NCBI RefSeq assembly: GCF_028641065.1
Contig: NC_073378.1
Coordinates: forward strand, 127,224,001 to 127,288,000
Source: Leucoraja erinacea
Lineage: Eukaryota
Direction: 5' to 3'
Length of the DNA: 64,000 bases
The notes beneath the pieces were generated by a model. It made no database searches and was not told the DNA's origin. It saw only the letters and a list, made by a program, of their open reading frames with translations. Numbering within the stretch: position 1 is the stretch's first letter; each line of letters begins with the position of its first letter. This document shows, one piece after another, positions 14,150 to 60,304 of this stretch. A program made the translations under genes and the position numbers.

Positions 14150-14441
14150 GTGTTGCAGGATTCTCATCGGAGAGAGGAGAACTTTTTCAAAGTAGGCAAA
14201 CCTTCAGGAGATTACGGTGTGGAGCAGACAAAATGTGGAGGAAGGAACTGCAGATGCCGGTTTACATCGAAGATATTAAACACCTTTTGCCTGGCTCTAC
14301 GACCTTTTGCATATCTTTCCTTCATTTTTTTCTATATCTCTCTCTTTCACCTTCTACATCTCTCGTTTTCCTTTCCCCTGACTCTCAGTCTGAAGAAGGG
14401 TCTCGACCCGAAACGTCACCCACTCCTTTTCTCCAGAGATG
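14150..14441. mobile_element. PLE fragments (inverted piece, 3'UTR and intact hammerhead-like core)
   Basis: Pyrimidine-rich UTR followed by ctgaagaagggtctcgacccgaaacgtc. Confidence 0.8.
14390..14417 (+). ncRNA. Minimal type I hammerhead ribozyme motif (representative copy)
   Basis: CUGAAGA-A-[GGGUC UC GACCC]-GAAA-CG-UC. Identical copies at 57474-57501 (+) and 29910-29937 (-). Activity is not shown. Confidence 0.7.
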
Positions 14442-14670
14442 GGCAGTCGCGGTGGCACAGCGGTAGAATTGCTGCCTTACAGCAAAAGGCGGTGCCAAAG
14501 ACCCAGGTTCGATCCCGACTACGGGTGCTGTCTGTACGGAGTTTGTACGTTCTCCCCGTGATCTGCGTGGGTTTTCTCTGAGAACTTTGGTTTCCTCCCA
14601 CACTCCAAAGACGTACAGGTGTGTAGGTAAATTGGTTTGTTTAATTGGCTTGATAAAATGTTAAATTGTC
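14442..14670 (+). mobile_element. HE1 V-SINE
   Basis: A box, B box and V-domain. Confidence 0.88.
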
Positions 14671-15189
14671 CAAGTTGACGATATGCAGAGTACTGCCCTG
14701 CCGACTACAAAATTCAGAAGGTTCAGAAGGATGTTGCCTGACTCGCTGAGTGGCTCCAGCTTTTTGTGTGTATCTTCGATTCAAACTAGCATATGCAGTT
14801 CTTTCCTACACATCATTACGAAATATTTGACACAGATTGGGATAAGTTATTAATTATTTTAAATAAAATAATTAATTTCGAGCCCACCGCGCAAGTTTTG
14901 CAAAGACATCAACTTTTAGATCTTCATTGAGCCACCTCTAAAGCAGTAACACAACCTTAAGTTTATCCGAAATATCAACCACTACACTGGGCATAAATCC
15001 CCTACTTATCTTTGAAAAAGTATATGGAGTCTATTGATGGCTCAGGCAGAATATCAATTTATTCCACATCTGAAAGGCAAAGCCTCTGGGAGTGCAGTAT
15101 ATCCTTCACACAACACCAAAGTAAAAGCCAAGGTTTATCATGCGTGACTTAAGTACATAACCTATGTCACAAAGGCAAGCTACAGATAC

Positions 15190-27320: not shown

Positions 27321-28236
27321 AGGCAAATGCTTATTCCCTGGTTTACATATTCAACACATTATTAAACACATGACTTTAATGGTGCTACAAAACTACCTTC
27401 AGCAAAGAAAACATTACATGAGAAACGTCCTTAAGTTATTTGCATGTAAATACACACAATTGTGCACACGGCAGGTCTGAAATTTACTACCATGATTTAA
27501 TATAACTTCCTTTACAAGTTACATATCTGCACACATGAAGTTACATGAAAAATTTACTTTGCTTGCTGCACGGCACATCATTTGTCATCTGGTAATTTAG
27601 TTTGACGAGTCATTGGGACTGAACTGATTACAACAATTAGTATTTCGAGGTGGACATGTCATAATGCCATTGCTCCACCAGGAACACTTGATATATCATG
27701 TCGACTGTCAGCAAAAATAAAGAACGACTCCAAGCCTTATTATGAAGACAATTACTGCCATGGCATTGAGACTGAACATCACAAATCACTCACTTAAATT
27801 TCAAAACACACTACGTTAAGAGCTTGTTAAGGCTGCAGACTGATTGACACCTTCACCGAATATCCTGTTTAACAAAAGGCAAAATGAAAGCCTGGACCAT
27901 TGTGTGTCAAAATCAAACTGAATGCATGTTATCATTAATGGTTGCAATGCAATGCAACAGGAAATGCCACCAGGAGGACTTTTAAAGGGTCTGTTTGGTT
28001 CACATAAAGTGTTTATAATAATACATTTACTGAAAAAAAAACCCCAATACAACCGATTCCCAAATCAAGTTTATCTGCTCATTTCAACTGAATTTTTGTT
28101 GAAGTGTTACACCAACTTGGTTGGCTTAAATTCTAACTCAGTAAACGGTGCGACAAGTGGTAAACTATTCAATTGTCACCGCCATTTCAAACTCAAGAGC
28201 ATCCCCAACTTCTGTCCGAGTTACTGCATACAATGT

Positions 28237-28441
28237 GTAGGAAGGAACTGCTGATGCTGGTTTACACCAAAGGTGGACACAAAAAGCTGGAGTAACTCAG
28301 CGGGACAGGCAGCATCTCCGGAGAGAAGGAAAGGGCGGCGTTCTTGTTCCGAAGTGGGGTCTCGTCCCGAAGCGTCACCCATTCCTTCGCTCCGGAGATG
28401 CTGCCTGTCCCGCCGAGTTACTCCGGCATTTCGTGTCAAAC
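28237..28441. mobile_element. PLE-derived inverted-duplicated insertion
   Basis: Flanked by the 16-bp direct repeat ttactgcatacaatgt (28221-28236, 28442-28457). Confidence 0.85.
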
Positions 28442-28845
28442 TTACTGCATACAATGTTTGCACTTAAGCACTGAGATCTTAGCCACCATTTATTCATTCA
28501 TTCACTGAATCATAGATGTGTCTCACACTCCACATCACGAGGGCTACAAATGCTGAGAACATGACCAAATGTTGGAAATCTAAAGCAAAGAAAGAAGTGG
28601 TGGAAATTCTCAAAGATAGACCCAAAATCCTGGAGCGGGCAGGCAGCATCTCTAGAGAGAAGGTGACGTTTCGTTTCAAGACCCTTCTTCAGACTTACTC
28701 AGAAATATTCAAGTCTGAAACGATGAAACAAAGTAGCAATGCTCCTGCTCAAAATAAAAGCAATGAATGCTGCTTACAAACATTTTCTTCGCATAAAACA
28801 TTTTCTCCACGGCTCCTTAAGTAAGCAAACACCTAGTGTATTTAA

Positions 28846-29804: not shown

Positions 29805-29970
29805 AATGTTTCGGAAGGAACTGTGGATGATGGTTTAAACCAAAGATAGACACATAAAGCTGGAGTAACTCAGCGGGTCAGGCAGCATCTCTGGAGAAAA
29901 GGAACAGGTGACGTTTCGGGTCGAGACCCTTCTTCAGACTGAGAGTTAGGGGAAGGGAAACGAGAGATAG
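29805..29970 (-). mobile_element. PLE pLTR with intact hammerhead-like core
   Basis: gacgtttcgggtcgagacccttcttcag at 29910-29937. Confidence 0.85.
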
Positions 29971-31400: not shown

Positions 31401-31679
31401 TGAGAGCTATTGCACCATCTGATGAAGGCTTATTTTTGCTTATTTTCCTGATCTTTCCCTGTAATTTTATGAATGGTGCCATAGCGTTTATCACCCTTTC
31501 CTTGCGAACAATGGATCAAGAAAAATCTATCACTTCTAAAGGTATCTGTTCAAATACAAACTCATGCACTTTTCACATTTACAAAAGTATCCAAACCACT
31601 TTCCTAAACAAACATGGATATGTCGAAAGCACGAATCTTTGCAGTGTTCTAACATTTTTTTAAATACCATTCTTTACTG

Positions 31680-32335
31680 AAGATGGACACATAAATGCTG
31701 GAGTAAAGGGCCTGTCACACGAGCATGCAACCTGCATGCGGCAAGCGTGACCAAACCGGAAGCGGGGGTCGCGCGGAGGTCGAGTGAGTGACGTGAAGTT
31801 CGAGCGAAGTCCGCGGGAAGTTCGTGCGTGACGTACGGCGTAGAGATGCTGCGCACGCCCGTCCCGCCCGTCGAGGCGGTGCGTACGGCGTCGAGGCGGC
31901 TGCGGGCCGGCAGGCCGTGTCCGCGCGGAATTATTAAACACGGTCAGTTTTTCAGAGCCCCGCGCGATGTTGGGACCAGCTCCGCACAACTCCATACGGC
32001 TCCAGCGATCGAAGTGGGACCGGCCCCGCGAGGCCGTACGACTCAAGCGACCACGGTAGGTCGCGCTTGCCGCATGGATTCGCATGCTCGTGGGACAGGC
32101 CCTTAACTCAGCAGGACAGGCAGCATCTCTGGAGAGAAAGAATGGGTGATATTTCGGGTTGTCATGGAAGTGGGCGGGACAGAGATAGAATGTAATCAGA
32201 GACAATAAGACTGATCGGAGAACTGGGAAGGGGGAGGGATGGAGAGAGAGAAAGCAAGCGCTACTTGAAGTTAGAGAAGTCAATGTTCATAACGCTGGGA
32301 CGTAAGCTGCCCAAGCGAAATATGAGGTGCTGTTT
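31680..32335 (-). mobile_element. PLE 3' end (ORF end, UTR, pLTR) split by a MITE
   Basis: Minus strand reads HLIFRLGSLRPSVMNIDFSNFK* at about 32262-32330, then the repeat. Confidence 0.85.
31707..32103. mobile_element. PIF/Harbinger-type MITE, GC/CpG-rich
   Basis: Inserted in the host sequence ggagTAActcag with TAA duplicated; TIR AGGGCCTGTC[A/C]CACGAGCATGC. Confidence 0.92.
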
Positions 32336-33907: not shown

Positions 33908-34371
33908 CAAGGGCATCAACGATGTAGATTGGGATATCAGGAATTTATCGTTCCCGTTTGAGACGTCTATCAAGGGTGCAATAACAGCGGGGAAGCAGCT
34001 GTCCGTGAATCTGATGGTGTGTGCTCTTGAGCTTTTGCCTGACAGGAGAGGTGAGAAGTGAGAATAACCAGAGGGGCCCTTGATTATGTTGGCTGCTTTC
34101 CCAAGGAAGTATGTAGAGAGGCAGGGGGAAGCCGGTTTGTGGGACAAATTCTCTGCAAATTTCTTTCACAATTCTCTGCAAATTTCTTGCCGGTCTTTGG
34201 CAGAGCAGGTCAAGGTTGGCTGCTAGAGGCATCCCCGGGCTGAAGAGGGCCGGGTGTGGAGAGGGACGACGGTTCGCTGGACACCCGGAATGGAGGTGAC
34301 GGCTGCAACGGGCCTTGATCACCTGCTGTAGCTGGGACTGTAAAGTGGAGCCAAAATGGCGACTCTTGCAA

Positions 34372-34586
34372 TAGACACAAGATGCTGATGTAACTCAGCG
34401 GGACAGGCAGCATCTGTGGACAGGAGGAATGGGTGACGATTCGGGTCGAGACCCTTCTTCGGACCCGACCCAAAACATCACCCTGGATTCCTTCCATCCA
34501 GAGATGCTGCCTGTCCCGCTGAGTTACTCTAGGTTTTTGTGTCTATCTTTGGTGTAAACCAGTATCTGGCAGTTCCTTCCATCAAG
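34372..34586. mobile_element. PLE-derived inverted-duplicated insertion
   Basis: Flanked by tggcgactct[t/g]gcaa (34357-34371, 34587-34601). Confidence 0.85.
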
Positions 34587-39385: not shown

Positions 39386-39669
39386 ACTGAATGCATCCTT
39401 GTGATTTACTAAACTCACTCTCAAGTCCATGTGCGATCCTGAGTCTTTCTGAGATGATATGGGAATCATCTCATGAAAATCTCACGTGGATTTCATGGGA
39501 ATCATCTGCTTTCTAATGCAAGTGTTGTTCCTGCAGCCCATAAATTTGAGGGACACCTCTCATTTGTGTACACTTGGTCTCGCCATCAACCTGGTTATTT
39601 ACCGACATGCCCCAGAGAGGACCCATGTGCCACCCAATATTTGCAGTGTCAATGGGGCAAAAAGTAAAT

Positions 39670-40330
39670 TTAGGAGGAACAGCACCTCATATTTCGCTTG
39701 GGCAGCTCACAACCCAACGGTATGATTATTGATATCTCTAACTTCAAGTAACCCTTGCACCCGCTCTCTCTCCATCCCTCCCCCACCCGAGTCATCGTAC
39801 TGATTTCCTTGTCGCCCTGGTGAGTTTCATTGTCTGTTTCACTCATCTTCACCCAGCCCACAGCCAACAATGGACCTTTGCTTGATCATTTGTTACTTTT
39901 TTGCATATCTTTCATTAATTTGTTCTGTACCTCTCTATATCACCATCTAAACCTCACTTTTCCCTTTCCCTTGACTCTCAGCCGACCCGAAACAAAACCT
40001 GTTACTTTTCTCCAGAGATGCTGCCTGACCCACTGTAGATCTGCTCTACCCTATACTAACACACACATACACGCTACACACCATTCAGATATATAATCCA
40101 GTCTGTGTTTTACCATATAGTCACCAACGCCCCCAGACACTAGCGGTTAGTCGGGATGTATTCACAGTGGTGACAACCTGTAGTGTAACTTGATTATATG
40201 TTAATAAACTTGTTGGGTTATTACTTGGAGTATTTGCTAATAGCTCTACATGGTGTCAGAAGTGGGATCCACTTGGAGACCAGAATAGCTCTACGCCCAC
40301 TGAGTTACTCCAGCATTTTGTATCTATTTA
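39670..40330 (+). mobile_element. PLE 3' end (ORF end, UTR, pLTR) interrupted by an LTR element
   Basis: EEQHLIFRLGSSQPNGMIIDISNFK*, then UTR and repeat. Confidence 0.85.
40034..40295 (+). mobile_element. Collapsed LTR retrotransposon (Gypsy-like): LTR, tRNA-Leu PBS and LTR-end remnant
   Basis: TGTAGA...TCTACA (40034-40250) containing AATAAA; PBS TGGTGTCAGAAGTGGGAT (40251-40268); TSD CCCAC (40029-40033, 40296-40300). Confidence 0.85.
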
Positions 40331-43734: not shown

Positions 43735-44220
43735 GTTTAGTTTAAGTTTAGAGATACAGCCCGCGGAAACAGGACCTTCGGCCCACCGAGTCCGCGCCGA
43801 CCAGCGATCCCCGCACTTTAACACTATCCCACACACACACTAGGGACAATTTACACATGCACCAAGCCATTCAACCTGTAAACCTGTGTTCAAGAAGGAA
43901 CTGCAGATGATGGAAGATCGAAGGTACACAAAATTGCTGGAGAAACTCAGCGGGTTCAGCAGCATCTATGGAGCGAAGGAAATAGGCGACGTTTCGGGCC
44001 GAAACCCTTCTTCAGACTGAGGTTTCTCCAGCAATTTTGTGTACCTTCAACCTGTAAACCTTTACGTCTTTGAAGTGTGGGAGGAAACCGAAGATCTCGG
44101 AGAAAACCCAATGCAGGTCACGGGGAGAACGTACAAACTCTGTACAGACAGCACCCGGAGTTGGGATCGAACCTGGGTCTCCGGCGCTGCAAGCGCTGTA
44201 AGGCAGCAACTCTACCGCTA
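43735..44220 (-). mobile_element. HE1 V-SINE with an inverted PLE insertion (43886-44045), itself inside a Rex1 fragment (about 43650-44430)
   Basis: The PLE piece is flanked by the 16-bp repeat ttcaacctgtaaacct (43870-43885, 44046-44061). Rex1 reads CKKLQ|AQSITQT...TTRFKNSF across the SINE. Confidence 0.85.
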
Positions 44221-44774: not shown

Positions 44775-45327
44775 CAGGGGTTGGCAACCCTTGTTCTGCA
44801 TAGGGGCCAGGACGCATGTCTGTGAGCAGATGACGGGCCACATCTATCACGTGTACACATGGATCCCTCCCCAACCCGCCCCGGATGGCAGGCAACAAAT
44901 CACATGTTCACATAGATCCCGCTCCTTCGAAGACGCCACCCGGAGCACTGGCCCCTAGTTACGGGCGCTCACGAACATGGCGCACCTACGGCCCATTGCC
45001 TTGGCTCTGTCCTGAAGGCGGCGGCTCAAATACTCATACTCACCCGTCCCCGGCCTATTGACAACCCCGATCCCCACAGTGAAGCTCAGACACAGAAGGT
45101 GCGCGGGCGGCCGTGCCGGCGGCTTTGCGCAGGACGCGGTACAGGCAGAGCTCGGCCATCAGCACAGGCCTCCTTGTGTCCTTGCATCACCGCGCCTGGG
45201 CGCCGCGGCCTCCGTCCCGGGAGGTACCGGAGATGAAGGAAGTCTGCGGGCCGGACGATTACGGAAAGAAACAAACGCTTGTGGGCCGGATGATTTTGGG
45301 TTCCTGGCCTCAGGTTGCCGACTCCTG
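44775..45327. mobile_element. hAT-type non-autonomous element, GC-rich
   Basis: CAGGGGTTGGCAACC...GGTTGCCGACTCCTG; 8-bp TSD gaatatat/gaatacat; subterminal gggccg/gggcca motifs. Confidence 0.85.
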
Positions 45328-47125
45328 GAATACATCATATTGAATGTATTAGCCTGCAGAAACGTACGGAATTGGGATGGGTGCGATTAGTGTTGTTGCA
45401 GAGTGTCTCGCAAATGTGCCAACGTGTGATAGATGACAGTGTAAGGAAATTAAAGTTGTAGTTAATCCAGGGAGAGACAACCACAGAACGTTGAAAAATG
45501 GAGATTCTGAGGTCTACTCATCTGTGTAGCAGGCTCTCACAAAAATTAGCTGATCAATAACCTTCACCACATCATGCTCTACAAACCCCGCTGTCCCCCA
45601 CAGAATGCAAAACTATGCATGTGCATTTCAGGTCTGTATTTTCCTCATTCGTTCACTTGCCCTTGTCCAGGAGATGTAAATGTCCATAGATCAAGTCCTT
45701 TCCTTGACATGTCCATTACATTTCCAATTAGTCTGTTGAAATATTATGATGATCATGTTCTTGTTTGCAATGCGGGTTGGTTTATTTGACTCCATGAGAG
45801 GTGTTGACATTCCGCTGGCATGTCAAACCCCAGCCTTCATAGCACGTGAACGAAAACGGACATCTAAACCTCATATGGCAGCTGCGCCACATGTTAAATA
45901 CCCATAGTATGTTTTGCTTCCAAGAGCTTTTGATTTAAGTACTTAATAGTGCCAAAGCATTATCAGCTTTACTTAGTTTAAAACAAAGTATTTTAAATTC
46001 AACCTCCCAGAATTCTACCAAAAACCTGAATGTCATTATCAGTTTCTGCAGTAATATCTATAACCCAGCTGGAAATTTGCAAAAAGTATCCAATTATCTC
46101 AAATTGCCAAGTCACTAAAACGTTAGCAGATCAGTTGCAGGTTAAAGAAATCATCAAGTCCTGTGGTCTGGCAACATGTACTCTTGCAGGTCCAGCAAAC
46201 CCTGCCAGTAGATCATAAAATAAACAGCAAACCAGTGACAGTTGTTTCCCCAACCACAGTAACCTGAGAAATACAAGTCATCAGTTCCGGAAGCAGTGAT
46301 CAACAGAGCATGAGAATTCCCAGTTCTATAATCCCTCTGTAAATTTCAAACTGCACCAGCCTTAATTTATGTACCTATGCAACAGAAAGGGGATTCGGCA
46401 TCAGCTGGTCTGAAACATTTCTGACAAACCAGTAGCCCAGACGATAACATGATATCCATCTCCATCCCATGGAACAACAGCACTGAACAAGATCAGCTGG
46501 CTGCTTCTATGTATCCATCAACAGATTTGCAGACTCCCAAGACACAAAAGCACATTAACATATATTTTCATTCATCAAAAATGAAAATCTCTCTCAAGAC
46601 ACCCAGAATGTTTATTTACAATTTTTACCCCATTTTCCTGAAGCCGACAGGGAAAAGTACCTCAGATAAATGACATCTCCAACAATTTAGAAAGTGTACA
46701 TCTGTCATTTATGTTTTACTTAAAATTCACCACCCTTCATGTCAGTGACACGCTCCATGAAGTAAATGCACTGTTGTCACACCATTGTTTCCTTCATATC
46801 TTCTTCGGGGCACAGCTCTGAGCATTTCGAAGACCTTGGCAGTGGATAGTCTTCACATGCATGGGAAGACCCTCAGTTGTGATCAGCCATGGTTAAATAG
46901 GCGGGGATGAGGGAGCAGAAAGAAATGGTGGAATGTCAACAGGTGAGGGAGTTAAAACCCATGCTCAACATAATTAATCCAGCCATTCCTTCTGTACATA
47001 ATTCGTAAACCCTTTAGACACTAGCTTTTGTCTATCCCAGTACCAGAGTGAACTTGCTATCATCAGAAATCAAAATACCGGTCTTCTCCAAATCCAAATC
47101 ATTCAATGTGTGGAAGGAACTGCAG

Positions 47126-47200
<75 letters not shown>

Positions 47201-47864
47201 TATTTTATTGTCATTGCACGTCAGTGCAACGAGATTTAGTATGCAGCTCAACCGATGAAAAAGAAAAGTAAAATAAATAAATAAGCTGTGTGACGTGACC
47301 ATCCGAGGGAGACAGTCCAGGGGGGACGGGGGGCACTCAGCAGAGCCGGTTCAGAGCCGCTATAGCTCTGGGAATAAAGCTGTTTCTGAGTCTGGAGGTT
47401 CGGGCATAGAAGGCCATGTAACGTCTGCCGGAGGGAAGTAGTTCAAACAGTCCGTTACAGGGGTGTGAGGAGTCTTTATGGATGCTGACTGCCTTCCTGA
47501 GGCACCGTGTGTGGTAGATGCCCTCCAAGGCTGGTAGCTGTGTCCCAATGATCCTCTGCGCTCTGTGGCCGACGCGCTGAAGAGCTCTCCTCTCCACCTC
47601 CGTGCAGCTGAGATACCACCCAGAGATGCCATACGTTAATATGCTCTCTGTGGTGCAGCGGTAGAACGTTGTCAGCAGCTGTTGGGGCAGACCAGTCTTT
47701 TTTAATGTCCTCAGGAAGACCAGTCGTTGCTGTGCCTTCTTGACCAGCGCAGCGGTGTTGGTGGACCATGTGAGGTCCTCTGAAATGTGAGTGCCCAGAA
47801 ACTTAAAGCTGGACCCTCTCTCCACACTTTCCCCGTAAATGGAGATTGGGGCATATTCTCCGGT
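47126..47864 (-). mobile_element. Rex1/Babar LINE 3' part with an uninterrupted 162-aa ORF and a (TAT)n tail
   Basis: ORF 47337-47825: SFKFLGTHISEDLTWS...KKAQQRL.FLR...FYRCTTESILTY...LLPSGRRY...RLRNSFIPRAI. (AAT)n at 47126-47200. It interrupts a PLE repeat. Confidence 0.93.
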
Positions 47865-48344
47865 GATGCCGGTTTAACCCAAAGAAAGACACACAAAATG
47901 CTAGCAGAGAAAAGGAGAAAAGGAACAGGTGACGTTTCGGGGTGGTCACCGAAACATCAACTATTCCTTTTCTCACGAGATGCTGTCTGACCCGTTGAGT
48001 TTCTCCAGCTTTGTGTGTCTTATCTTCACATCGTACAGCGTACATCTTTGCTGCAGCCACTTTGAGGGGCACTTAAAGAAAGCTTAATCACACCGTGCTG
48101 TGAGCTGAAAATTAGAGAAGACATGGAGATATTGTTAGAACAAGCCCAAGATTAGTAAAGTGAAGCTGTTGCTTGGTAACTGTTACAAGAATGTAATGTC
48201 CAGGAGAGAACATTCGCCATTCATCAATAACCCGGCAGTGACCCCTACTGGTCAACTTGCACAAGCACAATATTTGTCACATTTTGGGCAAAGCTGCAAA
48301 TGACGACTTGCACAAATGAACAGATCTACCACTTAAAATGTCAT

Positions 48345-50474: not shown

Positions 50475-51255
50475 TTTAATGATTACATTAATCTCTGTGG
50501 GAGATTTTGCTCTTCACTGCTCAACTACTCTCTCAGTAGAAGTGGCTGACTGCTCCCTTACTGGTTCTCTTAGACACAGTCCATCACAACATTTCAAAAG
50601 TTGAGAGATATTCCTTATTTTGCTATTAATACTGGAGTCAAAACTGCGGTGCAATTGCTCTTCAATCTGATGACATTTTAATGGACTGGCGTTTCATTTG
50701 GTCAGCCAACTATCTAAAAAATGCAAAAATCCATCAACACCTTCAACAGCCTCTAATTCAAGGTAATAGGAAATCTATAAACACCTGTAGGATTTAGTTT
50801 GGCTCTGCTGAGTGCATAGTTTCCGATAGGAGCTCAATGCTTTGGTGCTAGTTGGAGGGAGGTAACAATCAAAGTTATCTTCCAATTCCTCCCAAAAAAA
50901 CATGCAAAATAGCAAAACTCACATGGCCCAACACAAATAGTGTAACTTGCCCAATCGTACTGGGACAACCAGAAGTTTACATCAATGCAGACTTGTCAAC
51001 ATAGCCCACGCAATAATCTATCTAATTTCTTTCTCAATACTTTTACAGACTTCTATAGAAAGTAGAAAAAAAAATGCTAGTTAATACACAAAAAGGACAC
51101 AAAGTGCTGGAGTAACTCAGCGGGTCAAGCCGCATCTCCGGAGAATATGGATAAGTGATGTCTTGGGTCTGGATCCATCTTCAGACTGATTGGAATGGAG
51201 TGGAGTACTTTATTGTCACATGTGCCAAGTCACAGTGAAATTTCTTGCTTGCAAA

Positions 51256-51672
51256 CCCGGTGGCTCAGCACTTCAACTCCTCCTCCCATTCCGAATCCGA
51301 CCTATCTGTCCTGGGCCTCCTCCATGGCCAGACTGAGTCCCACCACAAATTGGAGGAGCAGCACCTCATATTTGCGCTTGGGTAGTTTAGACCCCAGCGG
51401 TATGAACATTGACTTCTCCAATTTGAGGTAGCCCTTGCATTCTCCCTCTTTCCCCTCCCCTTCCCAGCTCTCCCACCGCCCACTGTCTCCGCCTCTTCCT
51501 TTCTTCAAGTTCCGCATCCCCCCCCCCCCCCCCCCCCCAGTCTGAAGAAGGGTCTCGACCCGAAACATCGCCTATTTCCTTCCCTCCATAGATGCTGCCT
51601 CACCCGCTGAGTTTCTCCAGCATTTTTGTCTACCTTTGATTTTTCCAGAATCTGTGGGTCTTCCTTAAACAA
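51256..51672 (+). mobile_element. PLE 3' end: GIY-YIG C-terminus, UTR, poly-C and pLTR with hammerhead-like motif
   Basis: PVAQHFNSSSHSESDLSVLGLLHGQTESHHKLEEQHLIF/RLGSLDPSGMNIDFSNLR*, then ctgaagaagggtctcgacccgaaacatc at 51542. Confidence 0.9.
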
Positions 51673-52734: not shown

Positions 52735-55135
52735 TTCATGTCATAGGAGCAGAATTAGGCCATTCGGCCCATCAAGTCTCCTCCGCCATTCAATCATGGC
52801 TGATCTATCCTCTTAACCCCATTCTCCTGCCTTCTCCACATAGCCGCTGACACCCGTACTAATCAAGAATCTATCTAATCAAGAGTCTGAAGAAGGGTCT
52901 CGACCCAAAACGTCACCCATCCTCTCCAGAGATGCTGCCTGTCCCGCTGAGTTGCTCCAGCTCTTTGTGTCTATCTTCGGTTTAAACCAGCATCTGCAGT
53001 TCCCTCCTGCACAAGAATCTATTGCGAATTATTGTCACTGCCCGGCTATCGTTGAGAAAATCAAAAAAAAGATCTTGGAGACATGCAGCAGATCAGGCAG
53101 CGATCACGGAGAAATAAACAATTAACACTTGAGATGAACATGAAACATTTACTCTGTTCCTCTCTCCACCAATGCTGTCTGATTAGAAACATAGAAAATA
53201 GGTCCAGGTGTCAGCTATTCGGCCCTTTGAGCCAGCGTCGCCATTCTACATGATCATGGCTGATCATGCAAAATCAGTACCCTGTTCCTGCTTTCTCCCC
53301 ATATCCCTTGATTCCGTTAGCCTCAAGCCCTATATCTAACTCGCTCTTGAAAACATCCAGTGAATTGGCCTCCACTGCCTTCTGTGGCAGAGAATTCCCA
53401 GTACTCCCAGCATTTCCTTTTGTTCCAGCGTCTGCAGCTGTCGTCCCTTTCTCAATCCCAACTTATTTTCTTATTTTCACACTTGCCAATCCAAAAGCGA
53501 CAAATCAAATCGCAGTGCTTATATTACGGCCCCCGGGTGGAACCAGTTAAGTCGAAATTGACAACAACAAAAAAATTGAGCTTGGAATTTTGAACATATT
53601 ACAAAAAAAAACCCTGCAGATGATAGAAATCTAAAACAATTTGGGAATTCTCTTCTGTGGCATGGGGGCAGACTTTGCCGTTTTAAAATGTAAAGAACAT
53701 ATTTATCGTTAGATAACATCTACAGTGAAATCCCATTGCAACTGTGATGTTAATGCAGACTGACATGGGAGACATCAGTCACTGGTTCACAAAAATCTAC
53801 ATCGAGCTGCAGCTTTAGTACCATTTTATGCAGGTTGTCTTTCACCGCTAGGTTGACATGCAAGATAAAAATCTCATCCGTCTAGCTCCATGTTCATTTC
53901 TCTACTTATTGCCTGCTTTCTGCCAGATTTTGAGCCCGAGGACATTCAATCTTTTTTTTCCCACAGGAGACAAAAATGCTGGAGGAACTCAGCGGGTGGG
54001 GCAGCATCTATGGAGCGAAGGAAATAGGTGACGTTTTGAGTCGAGGCCCTTCTTTTTATCCTGACTCTCAGCTCGATGTCACTTCAGGACTTTCCATGAC
54101 CACACATCGCTACACTCCTGGCAGATTTCACTTAATGTCGTTGAAGTCAGCATAAGATCAGAAGGTCATGAGGAATAGAATTAGGCCATTTGGCCCATTG
54201 TCTCTATCCACCATTCAATCATGGCTGATCTGTCTCTCCCTCCGAACCCCAATCTCCTGCCTTCTCCCCATAACCTCTGACACCCGTACTAATCAACAAT
54301 CTATCTATCTCTGCCTTAAAGATATCCACTGAATCTGAAACTTTTGATGCTGAGCTTTAATGAAAAAATATATGAATGCATTTAATGCTAAGAGCAACCG
54401 TGTGGCTTTCTTGACACTTCATTAGAACAATGGGGACATTGACTTACGATAGCAGAGAAACATAGAAACATAGAAAATAGGTGCAGGAGTAGGCCATTCG
54501 GCCCTTCGGGTCTGCACCGCCATTCAATATGATCATGGCTGATCATCCAACTCAGTATCCCGTACCTGCCTTCTCTCCATACCCCCTGATCCCTTTAGCC
54601 ACAAGGGCCACATCTAACTCCCTCTTAAATATAGCTAATGAACTGGCCTCAACTACCTTGTGTGGCAGAGAGTTCCAGAGATTCTCAGTTCAGTCACACA
54701 GAGAGTTACTGTGTAACTGCTCAGTTTGTTGCAGAGTTTAGAAGAATGAGGGGGGACCTCATTGAAACATACAGAACTGCTTGGAGAGAATGGGTGTGGA
54801 GAGGATGTTTCCATTAGTGGGAGAGTCTAGGACCAAAGGTCATAGCCTCAGAATTAAAAGACATTCCTTTAGGAAGGATATGAGGAGGAATTTCTTTTGT
54901 CAGAGGGTGGTGAATCTGTGAGATTCTTTGCTACAGAGGGCTGTGGAGGGCGTCAATGGATATTTATAAGGCACAGATTGACAGATATTTGATTAGTACG
55001 GGTGTCAGGGGTTATGGGGAGAAGGCAGGAGAATGGAGTTAGGAGGGAGAGATAGATCAGCCATGATTGAATGGCGGAGTAGACTTGATGGGCCAAAGGA
55101 CCTAATTCTGCTCATATCACTTGTGACCTTATGAC
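52735..55135. mobile_element. Cluster of CR1 3' ends (52735-52880 -, 53185-53400 -, 54160-54330 -, 54457-54683 -, 54737-55135 +) and PLE repeats (52885-53010, 53965-54055)
   Basis: Same motifs as the other copies. Confidence 0.8.
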
Positions 55136-57470: not shown

Positions 57471-57565
57471 AGTCTGAAGAAGGGTCTCGACCCGAAACGT
57501 CACCCATTCCTTCTCTCCAGAGATGCTGCCTGTCCCGCAGAGTTACTCCAGCTTTTTTGTGTCTA
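57471..57565 (+). mobile_element. PLE pLTR with intact hammerhead-like core
   Basis: ctgaagaagggtctcgacccgaaacgtc at 57474-57501. Confidence 0.85.
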
Positions 57566-58120
57566 GCTTGGGATCTCTTCCTGGTGGCTTTGAGAACATA
57601 AACTGGTCATCTCGTGCCTAATCGAGGATCGAAGATCTGGTAGCACGCGTGCAAACATTGAAGCCTGACCAAAGGGACCAAGAGTAATCATCACACCAAA
57701 GCTGGAAATGTTAGCCAGAGAGAGAAAAGTGACGACAGTTCAGTTAGCCGGCCACTGAATTCGGTTGATTTTGCAGAGAAAGCATTGGTTCTTTCTCTTC
57801 AATGCTCTGAGGTGCCCAAAATAGGAAATCTGCCGGTTGACAACCTCAACCCAAGAGCTTCAAATCAGCAACATACTGATCAACAATAAACAGTGCCATG
57901 AGAGAGATGTTAATTTTCTCATACCAAGCAACCGACAGAAAACTGATAGTAATGACAAAAGATAGGAATGTGATCTTGATCAGATGGTTCTATCTTAATG
58001 TGGAGTGAAGGTTTAAATTTGACTATGGTCCCAAGGGATTCTTTCATGTACCGGACTGATCAAAACCAATTATATGTATATGCCACGTGATCTTAAATAC
58101 GTGATTAACGTCTTTGGGAT

Positions 58121-59272: not shown

Positions 59273-60304
59273 ATCAAATCCTTTTGCTATGAATCAAATC
59301 CTTTTGCTATGTTGGAATACAACATCCTGGACTATAATTACATATTCCAAAGCTTTGAGAAAGGTTTGGATAGGGTAATCATGAATGCACGACAAAATTA
59401 AAGCAACAAAGCCTCAGAATAAAACGTTACAGAACTTGCATGTTTTCATAGAACTTCTGTAATACTTCAGTGAAGTTTAATTTTTGGCATATCTTTCATT
59501 CATTTTTTTATATCTCTCTCTACATCACCATCTATATCTCTTGTTTCCCTTTCCCCTGACTCTCAGTCTGAAGAACTTTCCCCTGACTCTCAGTCTCAGT
59601 CAACCCGAAACATCACCCATTCCTTCTCTCCAGAGATGCTGCCTCACCCGCTGAATCACTCCAGCTTTTTGTGTCGATCTAATTTGGTCCCAATTGATGC
59701 AAATCTAAAGTCCTTTCATGCAGATAGAGAAAACCTCATGACAAAAATTAATTCCAAAATGATCTAGTTAAATTACTGGGATGAATCACTGATTTAAATA
59801 CTTATATACCTACGATTATCTTCACTATATTTTAGATGAAAAGAGAAAAATGAGGGCCATAACTTCATTTAAACCAGCAAACATAAGTAGATAAGACTAA
59901 AGGTTCACCATGATACAAATTATCATATTCTTCAAGGAATCTCATGGATTATTCATCGAAACAGCAACAGATGTCATTTTTAAGTAGAGGCATGGAGTTG
60001 CTTTTTTTTTTCCATGATTAAATTGGTTGTTAGCACAAAGCTTTTATGACCTCAACATCTGAAATAAATTCACAACTGAGCACCAAAACACATCAGTCAG
60101 AAAATAAATTAAGCAAAAAAAAAAAAATGTTTTGCTTGTCAAGAGAGTTTCACACAGTCCAGATCTGCTTTCAGTTTATGGTGGGCAGTAAAATAAATCT
60201 TAATTGTAGGTGTACAATTGTAACCATTTGAAAAAAACACACCACTGCAAGCAGCAAACTAAACATCAAGTGTCTTTTAAAACAGAGCTCTTTGTTTTAT
60301 TTAA

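What the first reader, a model, noticed from the sequence alone, without database searches (positions are those of the whole stretch)
14381..14425. Dozens of dispersed minimal hammerhead-ribozyme motifs carried by a Penelope-derived short repeat
Seen: the most frequent repeat (about 40 loci by eye) contains CTGAAGA-A-GGGTC-TC-GACCC-GAAA-CG-TC. The motif is intact at 14390, 57474 and 29910 (-), and intact with variants at 9447, 36407, 43988 (-) and 60402. Stem II variants keep pairing: GGGTC/GACCC, GGGTT/GGCCC (G-U pairs) and AGGTC/GACCT (double change, 60402 and 1404). At 51256-51672 the motif lies directly 3' of a GIY-YIG ORF stop. Established: CUGANGA...GAAA...UH is the hammerhead core, an extra A after A9 occurs in natural hammerheads, and PLEs are known to carry minimal type I hammerheads whose palindromic stem III loop (here ACGU) permits dimeric cleavage. 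Inference: this genome carries a very high density of potential self-cleaving RNA sites. Stem I is only 2-3 bp in these copies and CpG decay could explain some variants, so many copies may be inactive.
Basis: partly seen in the sequence, partly recalled or inferred. Interest (0 to 1): 0.75.

Follow-up and report, generated by a model that had tools for sequence, protein, structure and literature searches.

The report
Penelope retrotransposon ends with minimal hammerheads
This very common 130-letter repeat in a skate-like fish genome is the cut-short end of a known kind of jumping gene (Penelope-like) carrying a known miniature hammerhead-ribozyme motif; the copies decay like neutral DNA and likely do not cut host RNA, but their fixed ends likely record how the element copies itself.

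Summary
The motif is real: 36 loci within 7 edits (3 exact); 11 pass a strict minimal-hammerhead descriptor against 0.035 in shuffles. It is the minimal type I hammerhead described for metazoan Penelope-like elements (PLEs), in the 3' pseudo-LTR and tail of a Neptune-type PLE (closest protein: Leucoraja erinacea, 91%). The 64 pieces (8.8% of the window) are mostly 5'-truncated insertions, some head-to-head, with 11-16 bp target duplications and two fixed 3' ends (the PLE tail). The 'high density of self-cleaving sites' is not supported as function. Intact cores number 11 of 31 against 11.3 expected from neutral decay. G12 is lost as often as its CpG partner (10 vs 11). Covariation is not significant, stem I is 2 bp, and stem II is 4 bp plus a tetraloop. 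48 of 64 pieces span the cut site and 1 starts at it; poly-A reads from a relative show no pile-up there. The GIY-YIG piece is frameshifted and its stop lies 110 nt upstream. Of residual interest, 26 of 29 copies reaching the core start 1-10 nt before it, likely the RNA's 5' end. The scan noted this family before, in this genome and in others.

The parts
14390..14417 (+). Minimal hammerhead core: CUGAAGA 14390-14396, extra A 14397, stem II 14398-14401 with 14406-14409, tetraloop 14402-14405, GAAA 14410-14413, palindrome ACGU 14413-14416, C17 14417; predicted cut 14417/14418
   Evidence: Sequence; descriptor; matches the published consensus
14388..14419 (+). Stem I: only G14388-C14419 and U14389-A14418
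   Evidence: stem I is 2 bp in 10 of 11 descriptor hits, 1 bp in one
14280..14389 (+). Upstream, pyrimidine-rich part of the pLTR (family A), shared with 29938-29968(-), 39899-39981 and 59483-59575
14418..14812 (+). Rest of the pLTR and tail, interrupted at about 14442-14729 by another repeat (13 BLAST pieces in the window counting this one; HE1/V-SINE by recall)
14234..14275 (-). Inverted partial arm (+89 to +131), head-to-head with the 14390 copy
2..286 (-). Open 95-codon piece of the PLE GIY-YIG endonuclease
   Evidence: Pfam PF01541 E 6.9e-5, 23.5 bits vs cut-off 22.6; best relative XP_055496363.1, Leucoraja erinacea, 91%
51254..51665 (+). Frameshifted endonuclease C-terminus (stop 51429-51431), 110-nt spacer, hammerhead at 51542 (G16.2 changed to A), tail
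39666..40035 (+). ORF end joined to family-A pLTR with the 5' half of the hammerhead deleted
32104..32332 (-). ORF end joined to pLTR with the 5' half of the hammerhead deleted
57471..57572 (+). Short copy, exact core, starts 3 nt before C3 with a G in front, no tail
29807..29968 (-). Copy with exact core, about 30-40 nt of upstream pLTR and tail
28234..28443 (.). Head-to-head pair, arms ending at +131 and +95, 16-bp target duplication
43885..44042 (.). Head-to-head pair, descriptor-passing core at 44015(-), 16-bp target duplication
1280..1520 (.). Head-to-head pair (cores 1373- and 1404+), arms ending at +94 and +129, 13-bp target duplication
34371..34580 (.). Head-to-head pair joined in stem II, arms ending at +92 and +125, 15-bp target duplication with one mismatch

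Best explanation
The repeat is the 3' pseudo-LTR and tail of an endonuclease-bearing, Neptune-type Penelope-like retrotransposon, the motif is that element's minimal type I hammerhead, and the dispersed copies are truncated insertions that decay neutrally and likely do not cut host transcripts. Shown: the link to the GIY-YIG ORF, target duplications, two fixed 3' ends, head-to-head pairs, neutral decay. Inferred mechanism: the endonuclease nicks both target strands about 11-16 bp apart. Each nick primes reverse transcription at one of two internal start sites on uncut element RNA (about +95 and +130 from C3). The cDNAs usually stop 1-10 nt upstream of the hammerhead, probably at the RNA's 5' end, or within the near-palindromic stem II, and are joined to the target or to each other through short homologies. 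The hammerhead would be kept by selection only in the master elements, where it would need a partner copy (for stem III) and probably the element's protein in order to cleave.
For: PLE identity: GIY-YIG hit. Relatives combine RT and GIY-YIG and carry a CX2-5CxxC linker (P0002, P0090), which Craig et al. report as absent from Penelope/Poseidon. Three loci join the ORF end to the repeat. Motif: fits the published consensus; 11 descriptor hits vs 0.035 per shuffle. Insertion marks: duplication score >=10 in 8 of 52 units vs 0.24 expected. 3' ends at +86-99 in 25 and at +123-131 in 23 of 64 pieces. All 8 two-strand units are head-to-head, and 5 of the 8 have the tail on one arm only, as in PMC3846280 and PMC11167929. 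Neutral decay: core non-CpG sites 30/399 vs flank 183/2534, p=0.84; C11.1 to T 11 vs G12 to A 10; intact cores 11 of 31 vs 11.3 expected. Uncut template: 48 of 64 pieces span the cut site and 1 starts at it. RNA reads lie on both strands about equally, depth does not drop across the site, and no start or end pile-up is listed.
Against: No full-length element lies in the window and no genome was held, so the master and its ORF start were not seen. With the 12 subfamily-diagnostic flank columns kept in, the core is more conserved than the flank (7.5% vs 12.2%, p=0.006), which fits selection in the masters. The RNA run is from a related species, about 6% of it was read, and fragmented poly-A libraries are a weak test for cleavage. 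44 of 52 units show no clear target duplication. G16.2 to A (15) exceeds C15.2 to T (4) and is unexplained. The Neptune label rests on motifs in relatives, not on an RT tree.
Confidence: 0.82

Rival explanations
1. The dispersed copies are active self-cleaving sites that affect host transcripts, for example by pairing two copies within one pre-mRNA.
For: 11 descriptor-passing copies in 63 kb (174 per Mb), so long pre-mRNAs would hold several. The family is abundant in poly-A RNA of a relative (11,109 of 7.3 million reads laid). Dimers of a Schistosoma minimal hammerhead cleave weakly in vitro (PMC4209133).
Against: Neutral decay. Stem I is U-A plus G-C only; the 2-bp examples in the published table have two G-C pairs. 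The monomer prefers another fold. The nearest same-strand intact copies are 2-26 kb apart. No strand skew (7+/4-, p=0.55), though no host gene was identified to orient the test. The anole PLE hammerhead needs protein and shows no cleaved reads (PMC11167929).
Confidence: 0.07
2. The 130-nt unit is an independent non-autonomous element (SINE- or retrozyme-like) transcribed from its own copies and mobilised by the PLE enzyme.
For: Sharp 5' edge at an initiator-like TCAGT (recalled consensus). Short copies outnumber those with upstream pLTR (26 vs 6 in the window). Head-to-tail joints from the 3' end back to the 5' edge occur in DNA contigs of two runs (14 and 10 contigs for one joint). Retrozymes derive from pLTRs (bioRxiv 10.64898/2026.07.22.740005).
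Against: No tandem array of the unit in the window. Junctions run through the cut site rather than from cut to cut. Each short subfamily has a counterpart still attached to upstream pLTR or ORF. The starts spread over 10 nt.
Confidence: 0.15
3. The 5' edge is the 3' splice site of a PLE intron (pyrimidine tract plus CAG just before the core), or a reverse-transcriptase pause, not a transcription start.
For: The D. virilis Penelope intron ends at the 5' side of helix I (PMC4209133). The upstream tract is pyrimidine-rich and a donor-like AG|GT lies at the ORF stop.
Against: The commonest start (-3) keeps the AG, and short copies share no upstream exon. None of the 15 listed joints had reads in the RNA run (315 joints not shown). 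A pause cannot be excluded.
Confidence: 0.2

Closest known systems
[quoted passage not shown]
   Same: CUGANGAH core, extra base after A9, G10.1-C11.1, palindromic 15.1-16.1 with no stem III of its own, position in the pLTR after the ORF, mostly single dispersed copies
   Different: Stem I is only U-A plus G-C and stem II is 4 bp (many listed families have 5-8). No cartilaginous fish among the rows seen of Table S1 or Fig. S3. Local density is 174 per Mb, against about 9,000 per genome in Xenopus tropicalis (one window, so an extrapolation).
Neptune-clade EN+ PLEs; inverted pLTR and tail insertions (PMC8557442, PMC3846280)
   Same: C-terminal GIY-YIG, CX2-5CxxC linker in relatives, 5' truncation, head-to-head inverted arms, 30-40 bp tail on one arm, target duplications
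   Different: Duplications of 11-16 bp vs 8-10 bp in Adineta; most copies here are only the last 95-135 nt with a shared 5' edge
Poseidon_Ac of Anolis (Frangieh et al. 2024, PMC11167929)
   Same: Two 3' end positions about 35 nt apart downstream of the hammerhead; uncut RNA as template; no cleaved reads
   Different: Different clade; the ORF start in stem II was not shown here
Non-LTR retrozymes (PMC7229834; bioRxiv 10.64898/2026.07.22.740005)
   Same: Type I hammerhead, PLE origin
   Different: Retrozymes are tandem arrays, in PMC7229834 with canonical hammerheads and circular RNAs; here the copies are single or inverted and the hammerhead is minimal

Membership tests
Minimal type I hammerhead of PLEs | CUGANGA and GAAA boxes, NUH triplet, stem II with G10.1-C11.1 and an extra base after A9 | tested here: met
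   11 hits vs 0.035 in 200 shuffles
Minimal type I hammerhead of PLEs | Palindromic 15.1-16.1 allowing a dimeric stem III | tested here: met
   ACGU in 10 of 11 descriptor hits
Minimal type I hammerhead of PLEs | Helix I (2-7 bp in the published rows) | tested here: inconclusive
   2 bp (U-A or U-G plus G-C), at or below the published minimum; pairing probability 0.001 in the monomer
Minimal type I hammerhead of PLEs | Covariation supporting the helices | tested here: inconclusive
   23 copies, one pair with double change; 42-300 of 500 shuffles reach the observed values; copies of one family have little power
Minimal type I hammerhead of PLEs | Self-cleavage after C17 | not testable with these tools
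   No read-end pile-up in a relative's poly-A run, a weak test
EN+ Penelope-like element | GIY-YIG endonuclease C-terminal to an RT, followed by the pLTR | tested here: met
   EN pieces joined to the repeat; RT only in relatives, none in the window
EN+ Penelope-like element | Inverted 5'-truncated arms, tail on one arm, target duplication | tested here: met
Neptune clade | CX2-5CxxC linker before the EN; RT phylogeny | tested here: inconclusive
   Linker seen in P0002 (79% identical) and P0090; not in the window piece; no tree built
Non-LTR retrozyme | Tandem units, each with a complete hammerhead | tested here: not met
   No array in the window; only scattered head-to-tail joints in contigs
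Non-LTR retrozyme | Circular RNA monomers | not testable with these tools
   Poly-A library only

The most novel reading that the evidence does not exclude
The element's capped RNA starts three bases before the hammerhead core, and the skate genome holds on the order of a million run-off cDNA copies of just the first 95-135 nt of that RNA, made when both target nicks prime at the tail sites near the RNA's 5' end. The copies would then map the promoter, both priming sites and the nick stagger of a vertebrate Neptune element in vivo, and show that the hammerhead sits at the very 5' end of the RNA and stays uncut during copying.
Probability: 0.4. Interest if true: 0.5.

Novelty: new member of a known kind. 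Interest (0 to 1): 0.25.

Why it matters
As a ribozyme finding it is ordinary: PLE hammerheads and their dispersed single copies were described in 2014, and these copies behave like neutral DNA. The remaining value is for PLE biology, where the transposition cycle and the hammerhead's role are open questions. The fixed 5' edge, the two 3' ends, the one-tailed head-to-head pairs and the 11-16 bp duplications match in vitro results from an anole element and give a very large natural data set to test that model.

Tried and rejected
Rfam scan at E<=5: no hammerhead family hit; this says little, because the motif lacks stem III and most of stem I. No whole genome was held, so no genome-wide count was made. 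A homolog search with 51240-51428 found nothing because that frame is mostly wrong across the frameshift; Pfam found nothing for 51239-51385, 51240-51428 or 51254-51385. A first target-duplication search anchored on single cores was not better than its control and was replaced by a unit-based search. The first fuzzy count undercounted and was discarded. Column labels were off by one and were corrected. Folding of 8 stretches gave z-scores from -1.3 to +1.1, so no stable special fold. Cap-derived G: G precedes the start in 5 of 8 copies beginning at -3 (about p=0.04 by hand), but one is target-templated and one is a palindrome centre, so it is inconclusive; a read-based count of this base was not obtained and the question stays open. 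No RNA holder was listed for the stretch. Summed contig depths were not used as copy numbers. No host gene was identified, so intron strand bias was not tested. Literature searches listed no paper describing this family in skates; they cover open-access text only, not Repbase or Dfam.

Full report
Observation. The sequence at 14390-14417 is as described. An edit-distance scan finds 36 loci within 7 edits (3 exact, 34 within 6), against at most one in each of four shuffles. An HMM built from 28 of these finds 64 pieces of a unit of about 135 nt, in 52 insertion units covering 8.8% of the window. A strict minimal-hammerhead descriptor passes 11 loci against 0.035 per shuffle in 200 shuffles; 9 of the 11 have both the CG palindrome and a 2-bp stem I. 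Stem II is 4 bp with a tetraloop, since a 2-nt loop cannot close. Rfam has no hit.

What it belongs to. The piece at 51254-51431 is a frameshifted C-terminus of an ORF whose stop lies 110 nt before the core. A sister piece at 2-286(-) is open and hits Pfam GIY-YIG. Its best relatives are Leucoraja erinacea proteins at 91% and 79%, which places the window in a skate-like fish by inference. Among 8 relatives scanned, 3 hit both RT and GIY-YIG models; P0002 and P0090 carry a CX2-5CxxC linker, which Craig et al. describe as absent from Penelope/Poseidon (PMC8557442, passages). So the element is most likely Neptune-type. Three loci join the ORF end to the repeat; two of them have lost the 5' half of the hammerhead by deletion.

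Comparison with print. Cervera and De la Pena (PMC4209133; main text parts 1-3 of 4 and supplement parts 1-2 of 3) define this motif, report thousands of single copies in fish, coelacanth and frog, and found no monomer activity and low dimer activity. I saw no cartilaginous fish in their tables. Frangieh et al. (PMC11167929; parts 1-2 of 4) show for an anole PLE that both target strands are cut and extended, that reverse transcription starts at two internal sites that define the tail, that the hammerhead cleaves only with protein, and that uncut RNA is the template. Li et al. (bioRxiv 10.64898/2026.07.22.740005; parts 1-3 of 5, supplements not seen) found retrozymes in one chondrichthyan and cleavage in 1 of 9 Xenopus dimers; their supplementary tables may include this family. 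Arkhipova et al. 2013 (PMC3846280), Schostak et al. 2008 (PMC2377424) and Cervera and De la Pena 2020 (PMC7229834) were read as passages only.

Are the copies under selection? Non-CpG core sites differ in 30 of 399 cells, non-CpG flank sites in 183 of 2,534 after dropping 12 subfamily-diagnostic columns (p=0.84). With those columns kept, the flank is more variable (12.2%, p=0.006), as expected if only masters are constrained. At the C11.1-G12 CpG, the tolerated change (C to T, 11) and the lethal one (G to A, 10) are equally common (the role of G12 is established knowledge). Among 31 copies covering core and flank, 11 have an intact core against 11.3 expected from neutral decay. On 23 aligned copies only one pair shows a double change, in 2 copies, and shuffles reach each measure in 42-300 of 500 trials. 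In the monomer, stem II pairs at about 0.07 and stem I at 0.001.

Is the RNA cut? 48 of 64 pieces span the predicted cut site and one starts at it, so templates were mostly uncut. In a poly-A run from a related species (X22, about 6% read, 11,109 reads laid at 85% identity or more), depth over the core is similar on both strands (about 2,800-3,200 vs 2,500-2,800), does not drop at the site, and no place with many starts or ends is listed. This fits passive read-through of many copies, but it is a weak test.

How the copies arose. 3' ends cluster at +86-99 (25 pieces) and +123-131 (23 of 64). All 8 units with pieces on both strands are head-to-head, and 5 have the tail on one arm only; two more such pairs are visible. 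Eight of 52 units have 11-16 bp target duplications against 0.24 expected. Of 29 pieces that reach the core, 26 start within 1-10 nt upstream, most often at -3 (8); the stopping rate there is 26 per 157 positions at risk against 29 per 2,878 downstream. A second cluster lies in stem II (10 per 299, p=0.0004), but 3 of these 10 are internal deletions in longer copies. In the RNA reads, 2,590 have unrelated sequence in front of positions -4 to -2, though some of these are longer copies of other subfamilies. The simplest reading, which is inferred, is priming from both nicks at two internal sites and run-off at the RNA's 5' end next to the hammerhead. A splice site fits worse, and a pause site is not excluded.

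Verdict. A real, known kind of motif in a known kind of element, at a high local density (174 descriptor hits per Mb in this one window). The regulatory reading is unlikely. The boundaries are a useful mechanistic lead. The scan has noted this family before: 28 notes in this genome fit the words searched and 8 were shown from other genomes. These are unchecked notes and not independent support.

Noticed in passing
window 14442-14729: Another repeat (13 BLAST pieces in the window counting this one; HE1/V-SINE by recall) has inserted into the hammerhead-bearing copy that the finding points to, splitting it after +52.
   Followed up: partly
window 32104-32332(-), 39666-40035(+), 59483-59680(+): Three of the six copies that keep upstream pLTR have lost the 5' half of the hammerhead, with the break ending in stem II; possibly slippage between two GTCT words 12 nt apart.
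   Followed up: partly
window, G16.2 of the motif: At this CpG, G to A (15 of 50) far exceeds C to T (4 of 50), unlike the other CpGs of the unit; unexplained.
   Followed up: no
window 8318, 11803, 13203, 20882, 28349, 34462: Six of 36 copies have U4 changed to C, more than usual for a non-CpG site; perhaps a master variant.
   Followed up: no
window 52870-52884: About 9 nt copied from the target flank lie between the target duplication and the element's 5' edge.
   Followed up: partly
window 45001-45500 and 31501-32000: CpG-rich, mostly non-repeated stretches (observed/expected 0.93 and 1.35); possible promoters, no gene identified.
   Followed up: no
window 51254-51505 in run X22: Over the ORF end and spacer the reads are about 2:1 skewed by strand, while over the hammerhead unit they are about equal.
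   Followed up: no
window 47337-47873(-): LINE-like ORF tail that hits Pfam ALKBH8_N (E 2.5e-18); probably a retroelement domain under a misleading name.
   Followed up: no
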